Assembly (NCBI GenBank): GCA_043813585.1
Contig: JBDRKW010000006.1
Span: forward strand, 15,444 to 79,443
DNA from: Candidatus Kerfeldbacteria bacterium
GTDB lineage: Bacteria; Patescibacteriota; Patescibacteriia; UBA9570; XYC2-FULL-38-9
Length of the DNA stretch: 64,000 bases
Direction: 5' to 3'
Below are positions 2,858 to 61,908 of the stretch, one piece after another; the first letter of the stretch is position 1; each line of letters opens with the position of its first letter. The notes under the pieces are model-generated. The model was not told where the DNA came from. It ran no database searches and saw only the letters and a program-made list of their open reading frames with translations. The translations under genes and the position numbers were made by a program.

Positions 2858-4456
2858 TTATTTCTTGAGCGGCCGTTTCTTGTTCACCGGAAACGGATTC
2901 CCAGACAGCGCCATCACTGCATACGCCGTGTTCAGCACTTCGTTACTGTCTGCGCCAAGTAAATCATACTTAAACGCTCCACCACTGCGCGCCAGCGAAT
3001 CCAGGTAATGAAACCCATTCAGATTATTTGTGGTCATTGATTTTGCTTCCTTGCGTTTTGCCCGCAAACCCTGCAATACCCATGCTGTTGATGATGCATT
3101 CGAGGTTGCGTCAACGCCATACCCCCAGCCGCCGTCAGGATTCTGTTGTTGGCGCAGGAACGTCGTCGCATTCGTAATTTTCTGCGTTAGTGATAAACCA
3201 TGTTTGTCCTTTTCTCCTTTGAGCCTGGACGCCATGTTAAGCCAAGCCGCTGTGGTATCAATGTCAGACGCGCTACCAACGGCAAACGATACGCCGCCGT
3301 CATCATTAATACAGGCAAACGTCGCTTCCGCGCCCTGCTTTAATTTCTTCGAATCATACGGCTCATCGGCCGCAATCATCGCCAGCACCGCAAAAATATC
3401 GTCATTGCAGTACGCCGCATCGCCAAACTGCTCGCCATCCATTGTTTTCTTCAAACGCTTCACAAAATTCGCCCCGTTATAATGCCGCGCATCTTTGCCA
3501 ATCGCTTCAAGCGCCATAATATGCCGGGCAAGCTCTGCAGTTCCCTTCTTCGCCATCGGACGGTACTGCTTCACCGCGCGAAACATCCGTTTATCATTCT
3601 TGCCACCAGCCTTCAACGCCATAGCCGACCATTCGGTCAATGCAATGCTGCCAGACACTTTACCGTTGTCATCAATATTTCTCTTCAGGTACTCCACACC
3701 ATTTTCCACCAGCTGCTTTCGCTTATACCGGCCCAGCGAATGGTACTTCTTTACTTTTGTGTAGATGCGAAGCGTCTTTATGTCGGTCTTCGGGTAGCCC
3801 TCTCGCACTGCATACACACTATAGGTTCCCGTCGCGTTTGGCTTGAATATTGCTTCGCCGTTGACATCTGTTGTAACCGTCGTATTCCCTATATGAACTT
3901 CTGAATCGCCGGCCGGTACATATGTACCGCTACCGGCTACCAAGTCATATTCATAATAATCCACAGTGGCGATAACGGTTCCGCCTTCACGCCGATGCTG
4001 TGCATTCAGTTGCAAGCGCAGCGGGGGGTTTGAAACGCCGTAGGTTAGAATAACCTCATCGCCCGGCTGCAGTGCAAAATCATTCATTCCGACTGACGGG
4101 CTCTCATAATTCACATAGTACAGCCAATAGTTCGAGTAATCGCCTGCATACGAATCGATCGAGCTCAGGAAAAACCCAAAACCATCCCAGTATGTTACCT
4201 CATATTCAAACTCACCCATCAACGATGCCGCATGCAACGCGCATAACGCATTCGCTCCGTCCACATGATGCTCTGTGCCTGTTGAATCTTCCACGTCGCA
4301 GCCACCGTCGGTAATATACACTGTTCCGTCATAAACCGTTGCATCGTTTGCTTCTATGCGGACCACCGCATCAACATACGTCGTTGCCGCAGCCGGCAAT
4401 GCAAACACCAGCGCCGCGCCTCCGATAAATAATAATGAAGTTACCATTCGTTTCAT
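2858..4456 (-). CDS. secreted protein with an N-terminal DUF4430 (BtuG/transcobalamin beta-like) domain, an Ig-like domain and a C-terminal alpha/alpha-toroid (prenyltransferase/terpene-cyclase-like, QQNPDGGWGY) domain
   Basis: Signal peptide MKRMVTSLLFIGGAALVFALPAAA. DUF4430-like motifs YWLYYVNYESPSVGMNDFALQPGDEVILTY. PFTA/SQHop-like repeat QQNPDGGWGYGVDATSNASSTAWVLQGL. An alternative start at 4489 would overlap the upstream gene by 25 nt. Confidence 0.6.
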   Translation of the reverse strand: MKRMVTSLLFIGGAALVFALPAAATTYVDAVVRIEANDATVYDGTVYITDGGCDVEDSTGTEHHVDGANALCALHAASLMGEFEYEVTYWDGFGFFLSSIDSYAGDYSNYWLYYVNYESPSVGMNDFALQPGDEVILTYGVSNPPLRLQLNAQHRREGGTVIATVDYYEYDLVAGSGTYVPAGDSEVHIGNTTVTTDVNGEAIFKPNATGTYSVYAVREGYPKTDIKTLRIYTKVKKYHSLGRYKRKQLVENGVEYLKRNIDDNGKVSGSIALTEWSAMALKAGGKNDKRMFRAVKQYRPMAKKGTAELARHIMALEAIGKDARHYNGANFVKRLKKTMDGEQFGDAAYCNDDIFAVLAMIAADEPYDSKKLKQGAEATFACINDDGGVSFAVGSASDIDTTAAWLNMASRLKGEKDKHGLSLTQKITNATTFLRQQQNPDGGWGYGVDATSNASSTAWVLQGLRAKRKEAKSMTTNNLNGFHYLDSLARSGGAFKYDLLGADSNEVLNTAYAVMALSGNPFPVNKKRPLKK

Positions 4457-4464
4457 CTCTGTGT

Positions 4465-5184
4465 TTATAATGATTTTTCGTACGACCATTTTACCGAGTC
4501 GCCTTTATTTAACATTTTTGATGAAATGCCTACAGTCGCCTTCTGTCCATTCACGTAATAAATCCAAAACATGCCGGCATGCAGGTCTTCCTCTAATCCA
4601 TTGATTGCTTTTACATAGGAACCCATTCCTCCAAATGAGGAAGCCGTGTAAATAAAGCCCTTGCTCTTCGCATTCTTCATTAACTGCTCGACTGATGCGC
4701 CGGTGTTGATATCTGCCGTATAGGTTGCCGTCCCAGACGGTGTAACCACCTGCAGCGTTGCAGCATACACCTGCTGCTCCGGTGCTTTTTCCTCCTGCTT
4801 TTTCTCTTCCTTCTGTTCCTGTGCAACTTCCTCGACTTCCTCCGGTTCGGCTTCCAGGTTCGCTTCCTCCGGATCAGCTGCGCCTTGTTCAGGTCCCGCC
4901 GATGTTGTAATGGTTGGCGCATTCTCTTCCGGCTGTTCACACTCCTCTTCAACGGCTTCCTTTACTACTGCATTACTGTCTTTTTTTATCTTTTGATCCT
5001 GTTGTTCCGCAACTTCGTTTACAACGCCTGCTTCAGCGCCCGCAACGACAGACTCGTACGACTGGTTCGCGCCGGCCTGCTGCATTTCATAACCGTTGTC
5101 ATTCACAGATGGGCATGCACCGCCAAGAACAACCGCTGCTGATAGTGTCAGGCCGATAATAATGGTTGTCGTTCGTGTAAACAT
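4465..5184 (-). CDS. secreted/lipoprotein with a C-terminal DUF4430 (BtuG-like cobalamin-binding) domain and an acidic low-complexity linker
   Basis: N-terminal TM/signal ending in a Cys (LGGAC). A Glu/Gln-rich linker. C-terminal FIYTASSFGGMGSYVKAINGLEE...GMFWIYYVNGQKATVGISSKMLNKGDSVKWSY matches DUF4430. Confidence 0.6.
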   Translation of the reverse strand: MFTRTTTIIIGLTLSAAVVLGGACPSVNDNGYEMQQAGANQSYESVVAGAEAGVVNEVAEQQDQKIKKDSNAVVKEAVEEECEQPEENAPTITTSAGPEQGAADPEEANLEAEPEEVEEVAQEQKEEKKQEEKAPEQQVYAATLQVVTPSGTATYTADINTGASVEQLMKNAKSKGFIYTASSFGGMGSYVKAINGLEEDLHAGMFWIYYVNGQKATVGISSKMLNKGDSVKWSYEKSL

Positions 5185-5197
5185 AGTTGTTGAAACA

Positions 5198-5395
5198 AAA
5201 AACCCGCAGACAATGCAGGCGCGGGTGACGATTCGTCACGGGACTCGCATGCTTTTTGCTCGAAAGCGTTGTCGCGATAGCAAGCGGCCTGGCTTACCGT
5301 CTTCATGACGACGGATTACAGTTGCGGCACAGCTCCGGATTCACACCGGATTCCCTTGCTGCCCCATCTACCGGGGCAAGGCATAATTTTTTAAG
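5198..5395 (-). promoter_or_regulatory. cobalamin riboswitch (aptamer plus terminator expression platform) in the 5' leader of the DUF4430 operon
   Basis: The minus-strand RNA contains UGCCCCGG..GGGGCA, AAGGGAAUCCGGUGUGAAUCCGGAGCUGUGCCGCAACUGUAA, hairpin CCGUCGUCAUGAAGACGG and AAGCCAGGCC. It is followed by a CCCGC..GCGGG hairpin plus U6 ending about 15 nt before the ATG at 5184. Confidence 0.75.
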
Positions 5396-5429
5396 GTAAA
5401 AGCAGTATAGGCGATCGCCTGTCTGGCTG

Positions 5430-6440
5430 TCAAATAAGGTTGGTGACTTTTGCGATAAACACGGCGTACAAAAACAGCATGGCCGCGCCTTCCCACAGCC
5501 GGATCTTGTCATCCAGCGTCACGAAGAACGCGACAAACGTTGCGATAATCAAAAATGGGAGGCCGACCATGAAGGTGACATCCGTGAGTCCAAGGTCCGC
5601 AAACAGCGCCGGAAAGCCACCAACCAGCAGCAGGTTAAACGTATTCGAACCAAAAACATTTCCGATGGCCAAGGCATGGTTGCCCGCCCTAATCGCGGCA
5701 ATAGACGTAAGCACTTCGGGCAACGACGTACCAATCGCGACAACCGTGATAGTAAGCATTGAAGATGAAATGCCGAGCAGTTCTGAAATATTAAGAACAC
5801 TGTCAATCAGGAACTTCGCGCTTATACCGAGTGCTCCCGCGCTGATAAGGATAATGAATAGGTACAACCCCCAGGGAATGTTTCCTTTTTTGCCTTTCTT
5901 CCCTTTCTTATCGGCATATTCATCCTTAAGATCTTGCAGCTCTTCTTTGTTCTCCTCTTTCTCTTTTTTACTGGTATCGGGCTTAACGGAGTAAATCAGG
6001 AAGATGATAAACAGGCCGAGAAGGAACAGCCCCTCTCCCCTCGTAATCGTCCGGTCGAGCGCAAAGAACGTAAACAGCGCCATGGACGTGAAGAAAAACG
6101 GCAAGTCAACATCAATAAGCGATGTCTTCACTTTGAGTGTTTTGGCGACTACTGCGCCGATGCCCAGGATAAGAAGCGCATTGGCGATGTTGGAACCGAT
6201 GATGTTGTCTGCAACGAACGTGGTCACACCCGAGTGAACCACTGCCAGCGTGGAGGTGATGAATTCCGGAAGCGACGTGCCGATGGCAACAATGGTTGCG
6301 CCGACGATAAACGAGCTCAAACCAAGAGCCAGGCCAAGTTTCTCGCTGTACCGCGTGAAATAATCTGCCGACTTCACCAGGACCACGAGGCAGACAATCA
6401 ATACGGCGAACCAAAAAATTATCTGTAGCATATTTGCCAT
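5430..6440 (-). CDS. Ca2+/Na+ antiporter, CaCA (YrbG) family
   Basis: Two alpha-repeat GTSLPE motifs, 10 or more TM helices, and a central K/E-rich cytoplasmic loop. Confidence 0.75.
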   Translation of the reverse strand: MANMLQIIFWFAVLIVCLVVLVKSADYFTRYSEKLGLALGLSSFIVGATIVAIGTSLPEFITSTLAVVHSGVTTFVADNIIGSNIANALLILGIGAVVAKTLKVKTSLIDVDLPFFFTSMALFTFFALDRTITRGEGLFLLGLFIIFLIYSVKPDTSKKEKEENKEELQDLKDEYADKKGKKGKKGNIPWGLYLFIILISAGALGISAKFLIDSVLNISELLGISSSMLTITVVAIGTSLPEVLTSIAAIRAGNHALAIGNVFGSNTFNLLLVGGFPALFADLGLTDVTFMVGLPFLIIATFVAFFVTLDDKIRLWEGAAMLFLYAVFIAKVTNLI

Positions 6441-6479: not shown

Positions 6480-6773
6480 GTGCGCATGGAATTTTCTCTG
6501 ATCAACATTCTGCTGGTTTATGTGATCGCGATTAACGTCATTACGTTTATAGTCTACGGCTTTGACAAGTGGATGGCGCGGGCAGGATCATGGCGCGTGT
6601 CCGAAGCGGTGCTCTGGATCCTCGCCCTTATCGGCGGGTCTGCCGGCGCGCTCTCGGGCATGAATTTTTTTCGCCACAAGACGCGCAAGGTATGGTTTCA
6701 GTTCGTGCTCATGATGATATTGTTTATTCAGATCGGCGCACTTTTTCTCCTCTATTACTTCGAAATTATCTAG
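6480..6773 (+). CDS. DUF1294 small membrane protein
   Basis: 97 aa with the conserved FDKWMARAGSWRVSE and FFRHKTRK motifs. Confidence 0.6.
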   Translation: MRMEFSLINILLVYVIAINVITFIVYGFDKWMARAGSWRVSEAVLWILALIGGSAGALSGMNFFRHKTRKVWFQFVLMMILFIQIGALFLLYYFEII

Positions 6774-57632: not shown

Positions 57633-58709
57633 CTAGTAAACGTTCAGTCGCGTTGAGCTGACAAAACCAAACTGCTCATTGAAGTCTTTAATGTTATGGA
57701 CACTTACTGCGCGCAATCCGAATGTTTCAGCATTCACGTCGTACATCTCCTGCAGGAAGGCCTGCTGGTCGCCGATATTGGCCCAGCGCGCCGACGTAAG
57801 ATAGACCCACACGGTGTCCAGCGCCTCATCAATTTCATATTCCCCAATCTGGCCAGTTTCTATCAGGTTATCGAAATACACGCGGCCGTCAGCATATTCT
57901 GCCGGTTCCTGTGCTTGTTCTTCCTCTTCCTTCTTTTTCTCGTCTTCTTTCTTTCTGGCTTCTTCTTCTCTAATCCGCTGCTCTTCCGCCAACCGCTCAA
58001 GCTCCGCCTGGCGTTCCTGTTCAGCCAACTCTTCTGCTGACAGTTCGCGATACAGTGTCATGCGCAAAACCGCCGTTCCGTGCACGCCGAACGATGCAAA
58101 AAAATGGTTGTTGACCGCCAAAATATCGATGGGGTTCGTACCTTCCGTCAATTCATAATCGTAGACAAACTCTCCGTTGTCGACCGGAACCTCAAGGTTG
58201 TTGATGTAGATCAATGATTTGGCCGGGCTGACCTTCCCCTTAAACGTCACAAAACGGTCCTGCGCCACAATACCGTCAGCCGGTTCGGTAATCGTGACCG
58301 TCGGCGCCCGGTTGATGACAAAGTGGAACACGCCCAGAGCAAGCACCAACAGCACAATGGCCGTCAATTCTGTCTGGTCGATGCTATCCCGCCATGTCCG
58401 TTTCCAGACAAACCAGATCATCAAAATTGGGATGACGATATACCAAAAATAGAGACCCAGAAAAAGTAGCGGGATTATCCACACCAGTTTCCACAAATCC
58501 TTTTTCTCGAATTTTTTTTTGCCGAAAATCGCCTCGCCTTTCTTAAGCTCCGTATCTGTTTTTACCCCCTCTTCCACTGTGTCTTCCTCCTTCTCCTCTG
58601 TAACATACAAAACGTGCTCTTCAATGGTGTTTGTGAACTCCAAACCGCAATGCCTGCAAACGTTTGCATTGTCGTTATTCGAATATTCACACTGTGGACA
58701 TGTGATCAT
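57633..58709 (-). CDS. membrane protein with an N-terminal double zinc ribbon, two TM helices, an extracytoplasmic Ig-like domain and a charged coiled coil
   Basis: CPQCEYSNNDNANVCRHCG at the N-terminus. TM at 70-100 and 110-130. EQERQAELERLAEEQRIREEEARKKEDEKKKEEEE stretch. Confidence 0.5.
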   Translation of the reverse strand: MITCPQCEYSNNDNANVCRHCGLEFTNTIEEHVLYVTEEKEEDTVEEGVKTDTELKKGEAIFGKKKFEKKDLWKLVWIIPLLFLGLYFWYIVIPILMIWFVWKRTWRDSIDQTELTAIVLLVLALGVFHFVINRAPTVTITEPADGIVAQDRFVTFKGKVSPAKSLIYINNLEVPVDNGEFVYDYELTEGTNPIDILAVNNHFFASFGVHGTAVLRMTLYRELSAEELAEQERQAELERLAEEQRIREEEARKKEDEKKKEEEEQAQEPAEYADGRVYFDNLIETGQIGEYEIDEALDTVWVYLTSARWANIGDQQAFLQEMYDVNAETFGLRAVSVHNIKDFNEQFGFVSSTRLNVY

Positions 58710-58797
58710 AAGATGATTATTTCCTCTTTATTGTACTAATAAAACAGTTGATTTGCAACTATGAAAACGCCTCCCGGGAAGGGATGTATTTTACTTT

Positions 58798-58812
58798 GGC
58801 ACCCGCACGGGG
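58798..58812. repeat. 15-nt partial copy of the tRNA-Glu 3' end (GGCACCCGCACGGGG), att-core-like direct repeat
   Basis: 14 nt are identical to 60755..60768, which is the tRNA-Glu T-stem/acceptor 3' strand read on the + strand. Confidence 0.55.
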
Positions 58813-58822
58813 TGAGTTCCGA

Positions 58823-60655
58823 TCATTTCTCGAATTTTGCGCCGCACTGGCTGCAGAAATTCTTGCGGGTCTCCAAATCGCGCCCGCAGCTTGGGCAGTG
58901 ATAAAAGTTATCGATCACCTCAAGGGCAATACTGGTAAACCGTTCAATCCCGGCCATTGCCTGAGGAGCGCCACGATGAATACTACGTTCGGGAAATCCG
59001 ATGTCCTTCTCACCGCTTCTCTTTGATATTTCATTGCTTTCTCTCCAGTTCATAAGCGCTCTGGATGGATCACCGCCCGTATAATAAATAATCTTTGAAG
59101 ACCGCTGCTCTGGGTGCTGACTAAAATATTCTTCCCAATATTCTTTTGAAAATATTGTATCTTCTGCTCTCACATAGTACATATCTTCGTAGGATAAGAT
59201 CTTCTGGATTTCGAAAGCTCTATACGGTTCTGGCTCCGTCACCATACCTGTATCAATATTGTGCCGCACAGCTTTAAGTCCAGATAAATAATTATTGTTA
59301 AGAAGAATATCTTGAATTCGAGGATCTTGTATACCAAACATCTCTATAATTTTGTTTCGAAATTCATCAAGGAATTCGTTATGTTCAACACTTCCAGATT
59401 TTTCATACAGACGCTCGTCAGCATCGAATTGCTCTATAAATGAATGGAGAGAATCTGATTGCAGAAAACTATCTATTGCCTTGATATTGTCTATCTGAAC
59501 TCTAGGTCGCCTTTTTTCGTCCAGTTCATATTGCGAACCATTTCGAGGATCCACCCGTGCGTCTTCAGGGATAAACACCAATGCGGCATTTAGATCTAAT
59601 CCTTCCTGCTCATTGGCCCATACCCACTGATCGTTTCGTTTTGGTATCGTCGCTTCAGTTAGTTGACCGTTAAAATAATATTGCGAAGCGATAAATGCGG
59701 AAGGATATGCAATGAATATTTCATTCTTGGTCTCCGCGCCATAATAATCATCCGACACAGCTTCGGTTGCAAAATGAACGGCCATCGAATCGGAATAATG
59801 TCCCGGCATCAACGGATGAGCCTGTATTGCATCATCATTCATATCCCTAAGGATTTCGAGCGCTTGAGTGCGAGAAAGATAAGGCAGCTTAAGAAAATTT
59901 GCGATTGCAGCAGACTTTTGTTTTTCAACAAGGTGTACACCAAGCGGCGGACGCAACCGACCATCGTCCAGTATATTTTTAAAACCGTCATGAAACTCTC
60001 CTACACCTTTGGTATGGAATGCAAGACTTGAATGATCACGAATTCCCTGCCGTGTCACATGAGTCACCATCTCTCCCGGAAAACGCTTTAGGAGGAGTGC
60101 ATATTCATCGACTGACAAAGAAGCAAGGTGTTCCTCTGAAAAATTTGTAACAATATCTTCTTGAGTAAAAGGACTGTTGGCCCATTTTTCTGCCTCTTCC
60201 TTATAAAAATTGTCTAGAAGTACTTGCTCATCCCGGAAGTGCCTAGGAAGGTTAGCGCTTATCTCTTCAGCTATCGCAGCTGCCTTTACCGAGTCACTTT
60301 TTTGGATCTCTTGAAGTTGCATCCATTCTTTCTCACCTAATTTAAAGTCAGCCTCGAGGGAACGATATTCCAAACAGTTCGATATTTCTTCAACCATGCC
60401 GTCATCCATATCTTCCAGCTGTTCATTCAGCTGGCCAAGCCGTTCCAGTAATTCTTGCATGTATTTTTCCCGCTCGCTCATTTCCTGCTTCAACTCAGCA
60501 TGCTTTGGCTGCAATTCAGCATCATTTTTTTCTTGCTCTAAACGAGCCGCACGCTGTTCCGCGCGCTTTGCTCGAATTTCCTTCGCAAGCTTCTGCCGTT
60601 CTTCAGGCGAGCGCTCCTTAGAAAATTTCCGTAAAAATTGTGGCCGTCTTATCAT
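58823..60655 (-). CDS. hypothetical 610-aa protein with an N-terminal coiled coil and a C-terminal CxxC..CxxC zinc ribbon. Sole gene between the tRNA-Glu 3' end and its repeat.
   Basis: C-terminus HCPSCGRDLETRKNFCSQCGAKF. Start taken at MIRRPQF. The tracked ORF extends to 60715 into the tRNA terminator. Confidence 0.5.
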   Translation of the reverse strand: MIRRPQFLRKFSKERSPEERQKLAKEIRAKRAEQRAARLEQEKNDAELQPKHAELKQEMSEREKYMQELLERLGQLNEQLEDMDDGMVEEISNCLEYRSLEADFKLGEKEWMQLQEIQKSDSVKAAAIAEEISANLPRHFRDEQVLLDNFYKEEAEKWANSPFTQEDIVTNFSEEHLASLSVDEYALLLKRFPGEMVTHVTRQGIRDHSSLAFHTKGVGEFHDGFKNILDDGRLRPPLGVHLVEKQKSAAIANFLKLPYLSRTQALEILRDMNDDAIQAHPLMPGHYSDSMAVHFATEAVSDDYYGAETKNEIFIAYPSAFIASQYYFNGQLTEATIPKRNDQWVWANEQEGLDLNAALVFIPEDARVDPRNGSQYELDEKRRPRVQIDNIKAIDSFLQSDSLHSFIEQFDADERLYEKSGSVEHNEFLDEFRNKIIEMFGIQDPRIQDILLNNNYLSGLKAVRHNIDTGMVTEPEPYRAFEIQKILSYEDMYYVRAEDTIFSKEYWEEYFSQHPEQRSSKIIYYTGGDPSRALMNWRESNEISKRSGEKDIGFPERSIHRGAPQAMAGIERFTSIALEVIDNFYHCPSCGRDLETRKNFCSQCGAKFEK

Positions 60656-60715
60656 AAAAAAACCGTTTACTAGATTTATACTAGCAATAAAGGCCGAGAA
60701 ATAGCAACACTTCAC

Positions 60716-60752
60716 AAAAAAAGCGCGCTCCCAGATGGGAGAGCGCTTTCTG
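60716..60752 (-). terminator. rho-independent terminator 3' of tRNA-Glu
   Basis: Minus-strand RNA AAAGCGCUCUCCCAUCUGGGAGCGCGCUUUUUUUGUG. Confidence 0.7.
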
Positions 60753-60755
60753 TAG

Positions 60756-60827
60756 CACCCGCACGGGGAATCGAACCCCGATTACCAGGATGAGAACCTG
60801 GCGTCCTGACCGTTAGACGATGCGGGC
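60756..60827 (-). tRNA. tRNA-Glu (anticodon CUC). CCA not encoded.
   Basis: The reverse complement GCCCGCATCGTCTAACGGTCAGGACGCCAGGTTCTCATCCTGGTAATCGGGGTTCGATTCCCCGTGCGGGTG gives a cloverleaf with an anticodon stem CCAGG/CCTGG and loop TTCTCAT. The D-arm resembles E. coli tRNA-Glu. There is a G1:U72 wobble. Confidence 0.8.
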
Positions 60828-60879: not shown

Positions 60880-61908
60880 TTATTTCAAGTCCTTGCCGAT
60901 CTCGATCACCTGCTCGACCATCCGCTTGGAATAGCCGTATTCATTGTCATACCAGGCAACCACTTTTAACAGATTGCCGGCAACGACATTGGTCATCTGT
61001 AAATCTACTACGCACGACAGCGGGTTGCCGATAATATCAGTGGAAACCAGCGGATCATTGGTCACGCCCAGGATACCTTTGAGGTCTTCTGATTCTGACG
61101 CTTTTGTCAGAGCTTCATTAATCTCTTCGATTGTCGCATCCTTTTTCAGAACCGCGGTAATATCGCTCAGCGAACCGACAGGAACCGGAACGCGTATGGA
61201 GATGCCGTCGAACTTGCCCTGGATCGAAGGTATTGTCAGGCCGGTCGCTTTTGCCGCACCTGTGGTTGTGGGGATAATGTTAATGCCTGCGCTTCGCGCC
61301 CGCCTCGGATCCTTGTGCGAACCATCCACCAGGTTCTGGTCTGCAGTGTACGCATGCACGGTGGTCATCATCGCTTTCTCGATGCCGAATGTCTCTTCCA
61401 AAATCTTCATGATCGGAGCGATGCAGTTCGTGGTGCAGGATGCGTTCGAAATGACTTTTTCTTTGTTCGCGTCGAGATCCTTGTGGTTAACACCCATCAC
61501 ATACGTGCCCACCGGATCGTCGCCTTTTGCCGGCGCTGAAATAATCACGGTCTTTGCGCCTGCCTGGAGATGCATGGATGCCTGCTCCTTGGTGCGGAAC
61601 ACGCCGGTGCATTCCAGCACCACATCGATATCAAGATCCTTCCATGGAAGCTTTGACGGGTCGAGCTCTGTAATCTTCTTGATCTTCACGCCGTCAACGA
61701 CCATATTGTCGCCATCGACCGTGATTTCGCCGGGAAACGAATGGTACACGGAATCGTACTTCAGCTTGAAAGCGGCATCTTCTACCGTGCCCGGATCGTT
61801 AATTGCGACGATATCCAGATCATCCAGGTGCTCACTGAACGCGACGCGGAACACGGACGACCCGATCCTCCCAAAACCATTGATGGCTACTCGTGTTTTT
61901 TTTGCCAT
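60880..61908 (-). CDS. gap: glyceraldehyde-3-phosphate dehydrogenase
   Basis: INGFGRIGSSV NAD-binding motif and the active site ASCTTNC. Confidence 0.9.
   Translation of the reverse strand: MAKKTRVAINGFGRIGSSVFRVAFSEHLDDLDIVAINDPGTVEDAAFKLKYDSVYHSFPGEITVDGDNMVVDGVKIKKITELDPSKLPWKDLDIDVVLECTGVFRTKEQASMHLQAGAKTVIISAPAKGDDPVGTYVMGVNHKDLDANKEKVISNASCTTNCIAPIMKILEETFGIEKAMMTTVHAYTADQNLVDGSHKDPRRARSAGINIIPTTTGAAKATGLTIPSIQGKFDGISIRVPVPVGSLSDITAVLKKDATIEEINEALTKASESEDLKGILGVTNDPLVSTDIIGNPLSCVVDLQMTNVVAGNLLKVVAWYDNEYGYSKRMVEQVIEIGKDLK

What the first reader, a model, noticed from the sequence alone, without database searches (positions are those of the whole stretch)
58798..60827. Direct repeat of the tRNA-Glu 3' end brackets a 1.9-kb segment carrying a single zinc-ribbon gene
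The last 14 nt of tRNA-Glu (T-stem 3' strand plus acceptor 3' strand, GCACCCGCACGGGG on the + strand at 60755..60768) recur at 58799..58812 in the same orientation. Duplication of a tRNA 3' end is the canonical signature of site-specific integration (attL/attR). The bracketed DNA holds only the 610-aa coiled-coil/zinc-ribbon protein (58823..60655) and the tRNA terminator, with no integrase. It is either a decayed integrative element that retained one cargo gene or a minimal mobilisable cassette. The cargo protein has no recognisable family.
Basis: seen in the sequence. Interest (0 to 1): 0.65.

Follow-up and report, generated by a model that had tools for sequence, protein, structure and literature searches.

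The report
Single-gene insertion behind tRNA-Glu
A 1.96-kb stretch of foreign-looking DNA carrying one gene of unknown function sits directly behind a tRNA-Glu gene, flanked by a 14-base copy of the tRNA's end; the same gene family occurs as a lone gene behind many different tRNA genes in other ultra-small (CPR) bacteria, and no recurrent integrase was seen near it.

Summary
GCACCCGCACGGGG occurs exactly twice in the window, at 60755-60768 (the 3' end of tRNA-Glu(CUC), minus strand) and at 58799-58812. Both copies have the same orientation and lie 1,956 bp apart. Between them are a terminator and one gene (58823-60655, 610 aa).

The insertion reading is supported by four results.
- The gene has the lowest GC3 of all window ORFs: 0.39 against 0.60-0.64 for its neighbours.
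- A syntenic relative (GAPDH 80% identical, same tRNA-Glu) carries four different genes at this position.
- The protein belongs to a family seen only in CPR/Patescibacteria sources, with about 390 clusters at 50% identity. It matches no Pfam, NCBIfam, PADLOC or PHROG family, and its model has no Foldseek match outside the coiled coil.
- In 75 non-redundant loci the family gene has no conserved neighbour. In 28 of them a tRNA 3' end faces the gene within 800 nt.

In three or four other loci (L104, L143, L154, possibly L124) the single gene is also bracketed by a tRNA-derived direct repeat (tRNA-Gly 38 nt, tRNA-Ser 18/19, tRNA-Tyr, tRNA-Leu flank).

No integrase lies inside any bracket checked. 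The zinc ribbon is a local C-terminal add-on, not a family trait.

Best reading: a minimal, integrase-less, att-flanked single-gene cassette. The recombinase is unknown.

The parts
60755..60827 (-). Intact tRNA-Glu (anticodon CUC). Its 3' end, at 60755, faces the inserted gene.
   Evidence: ARAGORN; Rfam RF00005, 60.6 bits; 71/73 identical to the tRNA-Glu of the syntenic relative L172.
60755..60768 (-). Proximal copy of the 14-nt direct repeat (attL-like), formed by the last 14 nt of tRNA-Glu.
   Evidence: Exact match.
60725..60746 (-). Terminator-like hairpin followed by a T-run, directly after the tRNA and inside the bracket.
   Evidence: Scan: 8-bp stem with 6 GC pairs, then GCTTTTTTTG.
58823..60655 (-). 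The only gene in the bracket: a 610-aa protein with an N-terminal antiparallel coiled coil (~17-134) and a ~450-aa globular part of unmatched fold. It belongs to a family seen only in CPR sources.
   Evidence: ORF list; identical to NCBI hypothetical protein ABIG66_01795 of Candidatus Kerfeldbacteria; alignments A1/A2; models with pLDDT 77 and 86; GC3 0.39.
58826..58900 (-). C-terminal zinc-ribbon tail (residues ~586-610). It is lineage-specific, not a family feature.
   Evidence: Pfam Zn_Ribbon_1, below cut-off; absent from 31 homologues; present in P0152; pLDDT below 50.
58799..58812 (-). Distal copy of the 14-nt direct repeat (attR-like), 10 nt after the stop codon. Under the integration model this is the displaced original tRNA 3' end.
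   Evidence: Exact match; no Rfam family here.
58770..58782 (-). Terminator-like hairpin (CCTTCCCGGGAGG then CGTTTTCATA), 16 nt after the distal repeat. It is a candidate for the tRNA's original terminator.
   Evidence: Scan. The assignment as 'original' is inference.
58813..60768 (-). The inserted unit as delimited by the repeats: 1,956 bp, one repeat copy included.
   Evidence: Repeat spacing; low-GC tract of 0.37-0.47 against 0.50-0.60 in the flanks.
57633..58709 (-). Flanking host gene (358 aa: N-terminal Zn ribbon, membrane segment, Ig-like domain). It marks the far boundary and has an orthologue in L172.
   Evidence: promoter-like site at 58758-58730 on the minus strand.
60880..61908 (-). 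Flanking host gene, GAPDH, upstream of the tRNA. It is 80% identical to the L172 GAPDH.

Best explanation
The 1,956 bp between the two 14-nt repeats is a minimal, non-autonomous integrative cassette. It carries a single horizontally acquired gene and was inserted into the 3' end of tRNA-Glu by site-specific recombination.

Proposed steps, all inferred unless marked otherwise:
1. A circular form of about 2 kb carried a 14-bp core identical to the tRNA-Glu 3' end.
2. A recombinase not encoded in the cassette (supplied in trans or since lost) exchanged strands within that core.
3. The tRNA was rebuilt using the cassette's copy of the last 14 nt and the cassette's terminator.
4. The original tRNA 3' end and its terminator were displaced to the far side of the gene.

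Shown: the gene is foreign in composition, the site is variable in a relative, and the family recurs as a lone gene at tRNA 3' ends.

The cargo is a 610-aa protein from a CPR-restricted family of unknown function. Its many invariant His/Arg/Asp/Glu/Asn/Tyr/Trp residues in a confidently modelled globular domain suggest an enzyme, and the coiled coil suggests an oligomer.
For: Anatomy of the locus:
- Exact 14-nt direct repeat ending at the tRNA 3' end, in attL/attR geometry.
- A terminator after each repeat copy, and a promoter-like site for the next gene after the distal terminator.

Foreign origin:
- GC 0.43 and GC3 0.39, against GC3 0.60-0.64 in the flanking genes; this is the lowest GC3 of all window ORFs.

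Variable site:
- In L172 (GAPDH 80% identical, tRNA-Glu 71/73 identical) the synteny ...GAPDH-tRNA-Glu-[X]-358-aa orthologue-...-Aminotran_5-Fer4-HrcA-GrpE-DnaK-DnaJ is kept, but X is msrAB plus 3 ORFs of mixed GC.

Family-wide pattern:
- 75 non-redundant loci; no neighbour family is shared by more than 4 loci.
- A tRNA 3' end faces the gene within 800 nt in 28 loci, against 7 loci where a 5' end faces it (binomial p = 2.5e-4; 19 against 5 after collapsing by tRNA type, p = 0.003). The tRNA density within 800 nt is about 10 times that further out (18 observed against 1.8 expected; 10 against 1.3). At least 15 tRNA species are involved.
- Bracketing direct repeats that end exactly at the tRNA 3' end surround the single gene in L104 (tRNA-Gly, 38/38) and L143 (tRNA-Ser, 18/19, with the same tRNA-terminator-gene-terminator-repeat layout). 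In L154 (tRNA-Tyr) the gene is bracketed by a 131-nt repeat unit that ends in the tRNA 3'-end sequence. L124 has a 43-nt repeat of the tRNA-Leu 3' flank.
- The family gene has lower GC3 than its neighbours in 41 loci (mean -0.10, t = -6.6). In L008 the low-GC tract coincides with the ORF alone.

No recombinase:
- The window bracket holds no other ORF of 60 aa or more that is not nested in the family gene, and the L104 and L143 brackets hold no ORF large enough to encode an integrase.
- Neither protein bordering the distal repeat matches a recombinase family, nor do ten other window ORFs.
- No recombinase family appears among the 25 most frequent Pfam families of 135 neighbouring ORFs.
Against: - No clean empty site was found. 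The only syntenic relative has other genes at the site and no tRNA-derived repeat.
- 14 bp is a short core, and the cassette has only about 125 nt of non-coding DNA for arm-type binding sites.
- No recombinase has been identified anywhere, so 'in trans' is an assumption.
- Only about 4-5 of the 28 tRNA-adjacent family loci show a bracketing repeat, and 47 of 75 loci have no tRNA within 800 nt.
- A small within-locus control (ORFs more than 1.5 kb away) has 3 of 22 faced by a tRNA 3' end, so these loci are tRNA-rich in general.
- No identical gene copy was seen in two different contexts. Within the look-ups made, the contigs that carry one and the same protein shared a context, so recent mobility has not been demonstrated.
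Confidence: 0.55

Rival explanations
1. Autonomous minimal element. The 610-aa family protein is itself the enzyme that inserts its own gene at tRNA 3' ends. It would be a new recombinase or a homing-type nuclease that recognises conserved tRNA gene ends.
For: - It is the only gene inside the brackets in the window and L143, and in L104 the only one besides a short GIY-YIG ORF.
- The family has no conserved partner gene, and no recombinase family appears among the most frequent Pfam families of 135 neighbouring ORFs.
- At least 15 different tRNAs are involved, which is easier to explain by one enzyme that reads a common tRNA feature than by many specific integrases.
- About 40 invariant, mostly polar or aromatic residues sit in a confidently modelled domain with no structural match.
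- Small GIY-YIG ORFs, a known selfish-nuclease type, sit in the same kind of tRNA-3'-repeat bracket next to it in L008 and L104.
Against: - No match to any recombinase, transposase or nuclease family by Pfam, NCBIfam or PHROGs, by PDB sequence profile, or by Foldseek.
- No recognisable DNA-binding domain apart from a sporadic Zn ribbon.
- No identical copies were seen in different contexts.
- The protein is highly conserved (38-47% identity to the window protein across candidate phyla).
- Most loci lack repeats.
- It is absent from the phage, plasmid and IMG/VR collections.
Confidence: 0.12
2. Remnant of a larger tRNA-integrated island. A conventional integrase-bearing element integrated at tRNA-Glu, then lost its integrase and all other cargo by deletion, leaving one gene between attL and attR. 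This is a cis-mobilizable element (CIME) in the strict sense.
For: - attL/attR-like repeats are retained without an integrase. This is the published definition of a CIME (PMC5704250).
- Tandem accretion and decay are visible at other tRNAs: L104 has an extra 14-nt copy, and L007 and L154 have serial 3'-end fragments.
Against: Independent decay would not be expected to leave the same single gene in brackets at tRNA-Glu, tRNA-Gly, tRNA-Ser and tRNA-Tyr. The bracket is tight (100 nt before the start, 10 nt after the stop) and shows no pseudogene debris. The low-GC tract equals the ORF in both the window and L008.
Confidence: 0.13
3. Recombinase-independent insertion. DNA taken up by natural transformation integrated by homology-assisted or microhomology-mediated (Campbell-type) recombination, using the highly conserved tRNA sequence as the anchor. 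This would produce direct repeats of variable length.
For: - Repeat lengths vary widely: 14, 19, 38, 43 and 131 nt.
- Repeats of non-tRNA sequence also bracket the gene: a 123-nt tgt gene fragment in L113, 62 nt in L147, and 45-57-nt promoter-like repeats in L125, L126 and L004.
- Some other CPR genes also show flanking repeats (5 of 111 control ORFs).
Against: - 14 bp is well below the length usually needed for RecA-dependent recombination (general knowledge).
- The tRNA-derived repeats end exactly at the tRNA 3' end, as in integrase att sites.
- Flanking repeats are enriched at the family gene relative to control ORFs (8/50 against 5/111, p = 0.024).
- The promoter-like repeats may reflect shared regulation rather than insertion.
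Confidence: 0.12
4. Coincidence. The 14-mer recurs by chance or as part of a GC-rich hairpin, and the gene is an ordinary, vertically inherited CPR gene that happens to follow a tRNA.
For: The 14-mer is partly self-complementary (CACCC-CGTGC-GGGTG with its flank). The region folds no better than shuffled sequence (z = 0.57), so no function is implied. Most family loci lack repeats.
Against: Chance expectation is about 1e-5. GC3 is an outlier. The gene is absent from the syntenic relative. Replicate brackets occur at other tRNAs. tRNA 3' ends face the gene far more often than 5' ends. There is no Rfam family at the distal copy.
Confidence: 0.04

Closest known systems
Cis-mobilizable elements (CIMEs) of streptococcal ICE/IME systems
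   Same: They are flanked by attL and attR at the 3' end of a target gene (often a tRNA), lack integration and transfer genes, and can sit in tandem with other elements at the same site (definition in PMC5704250).
   Different: CIMEs are defined as decay products of ICEs or IMEs and are mobilised by a related ICE integrated next to them. Here no parent element or integrase is known. The unit is a single gene of about 2 kb, and the same gene family recurs at many different tRNAs, which suggests a dedicated cassette rather than random decay.
tRNA-targeted genomic islands and prophages with tyrosine integrases (P4-type and similar)
   Same: An intact tRNA at one end, a direct repeat of the tRNA 3' part at the other, foreign base composition, and variable content at the same tRNA in related genomes. 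The repeat sublocations match (T-loop or acceptor region to the 3' end). This comparison rests on general knowledge.
   Different: There is no integrase gene inside or beside the element. The size is about 2 kb with one ORF, against typically 5-100 kb.
Integron gene cassettes
   Same: Promoter-poor units of a single ORF, without their own recombinase, inserted by an enzyme encoded elsewhere. This comparison rests on general knowledge.
   Different: No attC-type imperfect inverted repeat (no significant inverted repeat flanks the window gene), no integron integrase or attI, and the target is a tRNA 3' end.
Freestanding homing-endonuclease genes (e.g. GIY-YIG ORFs)
   Same: Lone selfish ORFs inserted next to highly conserved genes. 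GIY-YIG mini-ORFs occupy the same kind of tRNA-3'-repeat bracket in L008 and L104.
   Different: The 610-aa protein matches no homing-endonuclease family. Homing does not normally create direct repeats of the target.
Tycheposons of Prochlorococcus (recalled from memory, not checked here)
   Same: Small cargo-carrying elements that target tRNA genes and build up in tandem in streamlined genomes.
   Different: Tycheposons encode their own tyrosine recombinase. None is present here.

Membership tests
tRNA-integrated genomic island (integrase-mediated) | Intact tRNA gene at one end and a direct repeat of its 3' part at the other end, in the same orientation | tested here: met
   14/14 nt at 60755-60768 and 58799-58812; tRNA intact.
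tRNA-integrated genomic island (integrase-mediated) | Integrase (tyrosine or serine recombinase) gene within or next to the element | tested here: not met
   The only ORF of 60 aa or more in the bracket that is not nested in the family gene is the family gene itself. It and the 358-aa neighbour match no recombinase family. Ten other window ORFs show none (the window was not searched exhaustively). No recombinase family is among the 25 most frequent Pfam families of 135 ORFs neighbouring family genes elsewhere.
tRNA-integrated genomic island (integrase-mediated) | Base or codon composition different from the host | tested here: met
   GC3 0.39 against 0.60-0.64 in neighbours; lowest of all window ORFs.
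tRNA-integrated genomic island (integrase-mediated) | Empty site (tRNA directly followed by the flanking gene) in a related genome | tested here: inconclusive
   The only syntenic relative (L172) lacks the gene but has 4.7 kb of other genes at the site. No closer relative was found.
tRNA-integrated genomic island (integrase-mediated) | Excision to a circular form and regeneration of attB | not testable with these tools
   Needs reads, PCR or experiment.
CIME (cis-mobilizable element) | Retains attL and attR but has no integration or transfer genes | tested here: met
   definition from PMC5704250.
CIME (cis-mobilizable element) | Derived by decay of an ICE or IME and mobilised in cis by a related element integrated in tandem | tested here: inconclusive
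   No parent or tandem element in the window. The recurrence of the same lone gene at other tRNAs argues against random decay.
Insertion sequence / transposon | Transposase gene (DDE, HUH, serine or tyrosine type) | tested here: not met
   No hit in Pfam, NCBIfam or PHROGs, by PDB sequence profile, or by Foldseek.
Insertion sequence / transposon | Terminal inverted repeats and a short target-site duplication of fixed length | tested here: not met
   No significant flanking inverted repeat in the window. Direct repeats range from 14 to 131 nt between loci. Inverted repeats do flank the gene in L155, L124 and L173.
Integron cassette | attC recombination site and an integron integrase/attI platform | tested here: not met
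   No inverted repeat at the 3' end of the cassette, and no integrase.
Homing endonuclease gene | LAGLIDADG, GIY-YIG, HNH, His-Cys box or PD-(D/E)xK catalytic domain | tested here: not met
Known anti-phage defence systems (PADLOC) | Match to a defence-system protein model | tested here: not met
   Only a coiled-coil match to LmuB at E = 0.14.

The most novel reading that the evidence does not exclude
The CPR-restricted ~590-aa protein family is a previously unrecognised kind of DNA-mobilising enzyme, with an unmatched fold and a coiled-coil oligomer. It would carry its own gene, and nothing else, into the 3' ends of many different tRNA genes. That would make these about 2-kb units the smallest autonomous tRNA-targeting integrative elements known, and possibly a source of a new recombinase chemistry.
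Probability: 0.12. Interest if true: 0.85.

Novelty: new variant of a known kind. Interest (0 to 1): 0.6.

Why it matters
Little is known about mobile elements in CPR/Patescibacteria, which have tiny genomes. This locus and about 75 related loci show one uncharacterised gene family behaving as a solitary, AT-rich unit that is often tRNA-proximal and sometimes att-flanked, with no integrase inside the brackets examined.

If a recombinase acts in trans, this points to a cassette-type gene-exchange system in CPR bacteria. If the protein moves itself, it is a new class of recombinase or homing enzyme with an unmatched fold.

Either way there is a concrete, testable substrate: a 14-bp core in tRNA-Glu, a 38-bp core in tRNA-Gly, and a well-defined protein family of about 390 clusters that deserves a name and an assay.

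Tried and rejected
- The homologue search with the 358-aa neighbour gave one relative at 41% identity. This did yield the syntenic locus L172, but not an empty site.
- Assigning the protein to a family failed everywhere: Pfam (single protein and 32 members), NCBIfam, PADLOC, PHROGs, PDB sequence profile, and Foldseek against PDB (two models) and BFVD. Only coiled-coil or Zn-ribbon noise came back.
- Looking for the family in phages, plasmids and IMG/VR found nothing.
- Testing whether the ~1.9-kb Logan contigs are circles: there is no terminal direct overlap. L173 has a 30-nt terminal inverted repeat instead, which probably reflects a real flanking inverted repeat collapsed by the assembler.
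- Deciding which terminator is native by aligning intergenic DNA with L172: no alignment was significant (p = 0.13-0.8).
- I considered reading the 45-57-nt promoter-like direct repeats (L004, L125, L126) as insertion scars. I rejected them as firm evidence, because shared regulatory sequence explains them equally well and control ORFs show similar repeats.
- The repeat finder did not list the 14-nt pair. It was verified by pattern search instead.
- A literature search found no description of this family or of tRNA-flanked cassettes in CPR bacteria.
Full report
**1. The observation**

The window comes from a Candidatus Kerfeldbacteria (Patescibacteria/CPR) metagenome-assembled genome. The 610-aa product is identical to NCBI hypothetical protein ABIG66_01795, on a 219-kb contig.

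ARAGORN finds tRNA-Glu(CUC) at 60755-60827 on the minus strand, and Rfam confirms an intact tRNA at 60.6 bits. GCACCCGCACGGGG occurs exactly twice in the 64 kb, at 60755-60768 and 58799-58812 on the same strand. The only other near-match has two mismatches.

The repeat is the last 14 nt of the tRNA. The second copy lies downstream of the tRNA in the tRNA's orientation, 1,956 bp away. The identity is exactly 14 nt and does not extend. Chance expectation for such a recurrence within 3 kb is about 1e-5.

Read on the minus strand, the layout is as follows:
- promoter-like site, 60888-60861
- tRNA-Glu
- terminator-like hairpin, 60746-60725
- 70 nt
- ORF, 60655-58823
- 10 nt
- 14-nt copy
- 16 nt
- terminator-like hairpin, 58782-58770
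- promoter-like site, 58758-58730
- 358-aa gene

Rfam finds nothing at the distal copy, and the region folds no better than shuffled sequence.

**2. The bracketed DNA is foreign**

GC drops to 0.37-0.47 across the ORF, against 0.50-0.60 on both sides. The ORF's GC3 is 0.39. That is the lowest of all ~60 window ORFs (range 0.46-0.87), and its neighbours have 0.60-0.64.

**3. A related genome has something else at this site**

The 358-aa neighbour has a single homologue in 5.8 billion proteins, at 41% identity. Its contig, L172, is syntenic with the window over at least 14 genes: pseudouridine synthase, S11 peptidase, Sm_multidrug_ex, GAPDH (80% identical), tRNA-Glu(CUC) (71/73 identical), then the 358-aa orthologue, Aminotran_5, ferredoxin, HrcA, GrpE, DnaK and DnaJ.

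Between tRNA-Glu and the 358-aa orthologue, L172 has msrAB and three hypothetical ORFs (4.7 kb, gene GC 0.44-0.67). The family gene is absent, and there is no tRNA-derived repeat. This is not a clean empty site.

No closer relative exists in the collections searched.

**4. The cargo protein**

It has more than 330 full-length homologues at 38-47% identity. All those that carry a name come from Patescibacteria: Jorgensen-, Berkel-, Falkow- and Tagabacteria among others. A profile search of 1.84 billion representatives gives 391 clusters at E <= 1e-30.

No Pfam, NCBIfam, PADLOC or PHROG family matches, apart from Zn-ribbon models on the last 25 residues. That Zn ribbon is absent from all 31 aligned homologues and seen in only one other member. 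It is a local C-terminal addition, so 'zinc-ribbon gene' is a misnomer for the family.

A 112-sequence alignment gives a confident model (pLDDT 86, pTM 0.77). It shows an N-terminal antiparallel coiled coil (~17-134) followed by about 450 residues of alpha/beta and helical domains. About 40 residues are invariant, among them H199, R202, Q203, R206, D207, H208, H214, H294, Y305, E308, N311, E312, Y326, N341, D342, W344, W346, E349, S374, Y376 and R572. This pattern suggests an enzyme.

**5. The family behaves as a solitary, tRNA-proximal, AT-rich unit**

From 91 loci I derived 75 non-redundant ones.
- No neighbour family is shared by more than 4 loci.
- Among the 135 nearest neighbouring ORFs, no recombinase or transposase family appears in the 25 most frequent Pfam families. 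The neighbours are housekeeping genes.
- In 28 loci a tRNA 3' end faces the gene within 800 nt: 18 upstream on the same strand, as in the window, and 10 downstream and convergent. In only 7 loci does a 5' end face it (binomial p = 2.5e-4; 19 against 5 after collapsing by tRNA type, p = 0.003).
- tRNA density within 800 nt is about ten times that at 800-4000 nt (18 observed against 1.8 expected; 10 against 1.3).
- At least 15 tRNA species are involved.
- A CPR genome of about 1 Mb with about 45 tRNAs allows at most ~4.5% of genes to be faced by a tRNA 3' end (general knowledge). The family shows 35% (16/46, p = 8e-11).
- A small in-locus control gave 3/22, so these loci are tRNA-rich and the enrichment should not be overstated.
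- The family gene's GC3 is lower than that of its neighbours in 41 loci (mean -0.10, t = -6.6). In L008 it is 0.28 against 0.69, and the low-GC tract equals the ORF.

**6. Replicate brackets**

- L104: tRNA-Gly(UCC) at 6484-6555 (minus strand). The 38 nt at its 3' end are repeated exactly at 3583-3620, bracketing 2.9 kb that contains the family gene (3953-5764, convergent with the tRNA). A further 14-nt copy at 6119-6132 separately brackets a 105-aa GIY-YIG ORF.
- L143: tRNA-Ser, terminator, gene (798-2531), terminator, then an 18/19 copy of the tRNA 3' end at 2670-2688, then the next gene. This is the same layout as in the window.
- L154: tRNA-Tyr is followed by three tandem ~125-nt units, each ending in the tRNA 3'-end sequence, then the gene, then a fourth unit (131 nt, 96% identical).
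- L124: a 43-nt repeat of the tRNA-Leu 3' flank brackets the gene.
- L007, L008 and L124 have tRNA 3'-end copies between the tRNA and the gene.

These tRNAs are therefore sites of repeated insertion, and the family gene is recurrent cargo.

Flanking direct repeats scoring 40 or more occur at 8 of 50 family genes, against 5 of 111 control ORFs (p = 0.024). Some of these are non-tRNA sequences: a tgt gene fragment in L113, and promoter-like sequences in L004, L125 and L126. I treat the promoter-like ones as ambiguous.

**7. Mechanism**

The anatomy is that of integrase-mediated insertion into a tRNA 3' end, but without the integrase. I rank the explanations as follows.
- (a) A minimal non-autonomous cassette moved by a recombinase encoded elsewhere: 0.55.
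- (b) A decayed island, a CIME in the strict sense as defined in PMC5704250: 0.13. This is disfavoured because the same lone gene recurs.
- (c) Self-mobilisation by the family protein: 0.12. This is attractive because the protein is the only constant component, but nothing links it to DNA chemistry.
- (d) Recombinase-independent, homology-assisted integration: 0.12.
- (e) Coincidence: 0.04.

Shown: the repeat, the foreign composition, the variable site, and the family-wide tRNA 3' association with replicate brackets. Inferred: the circular intermediate, crossover within the 14 bp, which terminator is native, and the identity of the recombinase.

**8. Verdict**

The locus is a new variant of a known kind: an att-flanked, integrase-less element reduced to a single, family-specific gene and recurring at many tRNAs in CPR bacteria. 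A minority possibility is that the protein is a new mobilising enzyme.

Noticed in passing
L154:3450-3830 and 6215-6345: tRNA-Tyr is followed by three tandem ~125-nt units. Each ends in a copy of the tRNA-Tyr 3' end and contains the inverse complement of the T-arm, so it can form a long hairpin. A fourth unit (96% identical) lies after the family gene. It looks like a miniature, non-coding repeat that multiplies at the tRNA end.
   Followed up: partly
L155:1-114 and 2022-2134; L124:3831-3893 and 5753-5813; L173 contig ends: In some genomes the family gene is tightly flanked by long inverted repeats: 114 nt and near-perfect in L155, about 60 nt in L124, and at least 30 nt at both ends of a 1,864-nt contig (L173). 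The L155 repeat contains a bidirectional terminator, and the contig breaks at it. The window gene has no such inverted repeat.
   Followed up: partly
L008:7846-8270; L104:6119-6555: Small GIY-YIG ORFs (87 and 105 aa; Pfam E = 6e-18) each sit between a tRNA (Lys, Gly) and a 14-26-nt copy of that tRNA's 3' end, in tandem with the family gene. They appear to be a second type of mini-cassette at tRNA ends.
   Followed up: partly
L172:3265-8000: In the syntenic relative, the same tRNA-Glu is followed by msrAB and three hypothetical ORFs with very uneven GC (0.44, 0.67, 0.59). This suggests that this site takes up different cargo in different lineages.
   Followed up: partly
75 family loci (e.g. L008:5950-7800): The family gene is systematically more AT-rich at third codon positions than its neighbours (mean -0.10 over 41 loci; 0.28 against 0.69 in L008). 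The low-GC tract is confined to the ORF.
   Followed up: yes
L113:207-329 and 3287-3409: A 123-nt direct repeat at about 80% identity, which appears to encode a fragment of a queuine tRNA-ribosyltransferase (tgt)-like gene (identified from the translated sequence, not checked against a library), lies on both sides of the family gene. It could be a partial target-gene duplication or two paralogues.
   Followed up: no
window:5266-5391 (-): A cobalamin riboswitch (Rfam RF00174, 43 bits) lies upstream of the ORF at 4465-5184.
   Followed up: no
window:6943-8394 (+): This ORF has GC3 0.87, the highest in the window (typical values 0.55-0.70). It is a compositional outlier in the opposite direction to the family gene.
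   Followed up: no
window:57633-58709 (-) and 58826-58900 (-): Both the C-terminus of the inserted protein and the N-terminus of the next host gene carry CxxC...CxxC zinc ribbons, within 200 nt of each other and on either side of the distal repeat. No homology beyond the motif was established.
   Followed up: no
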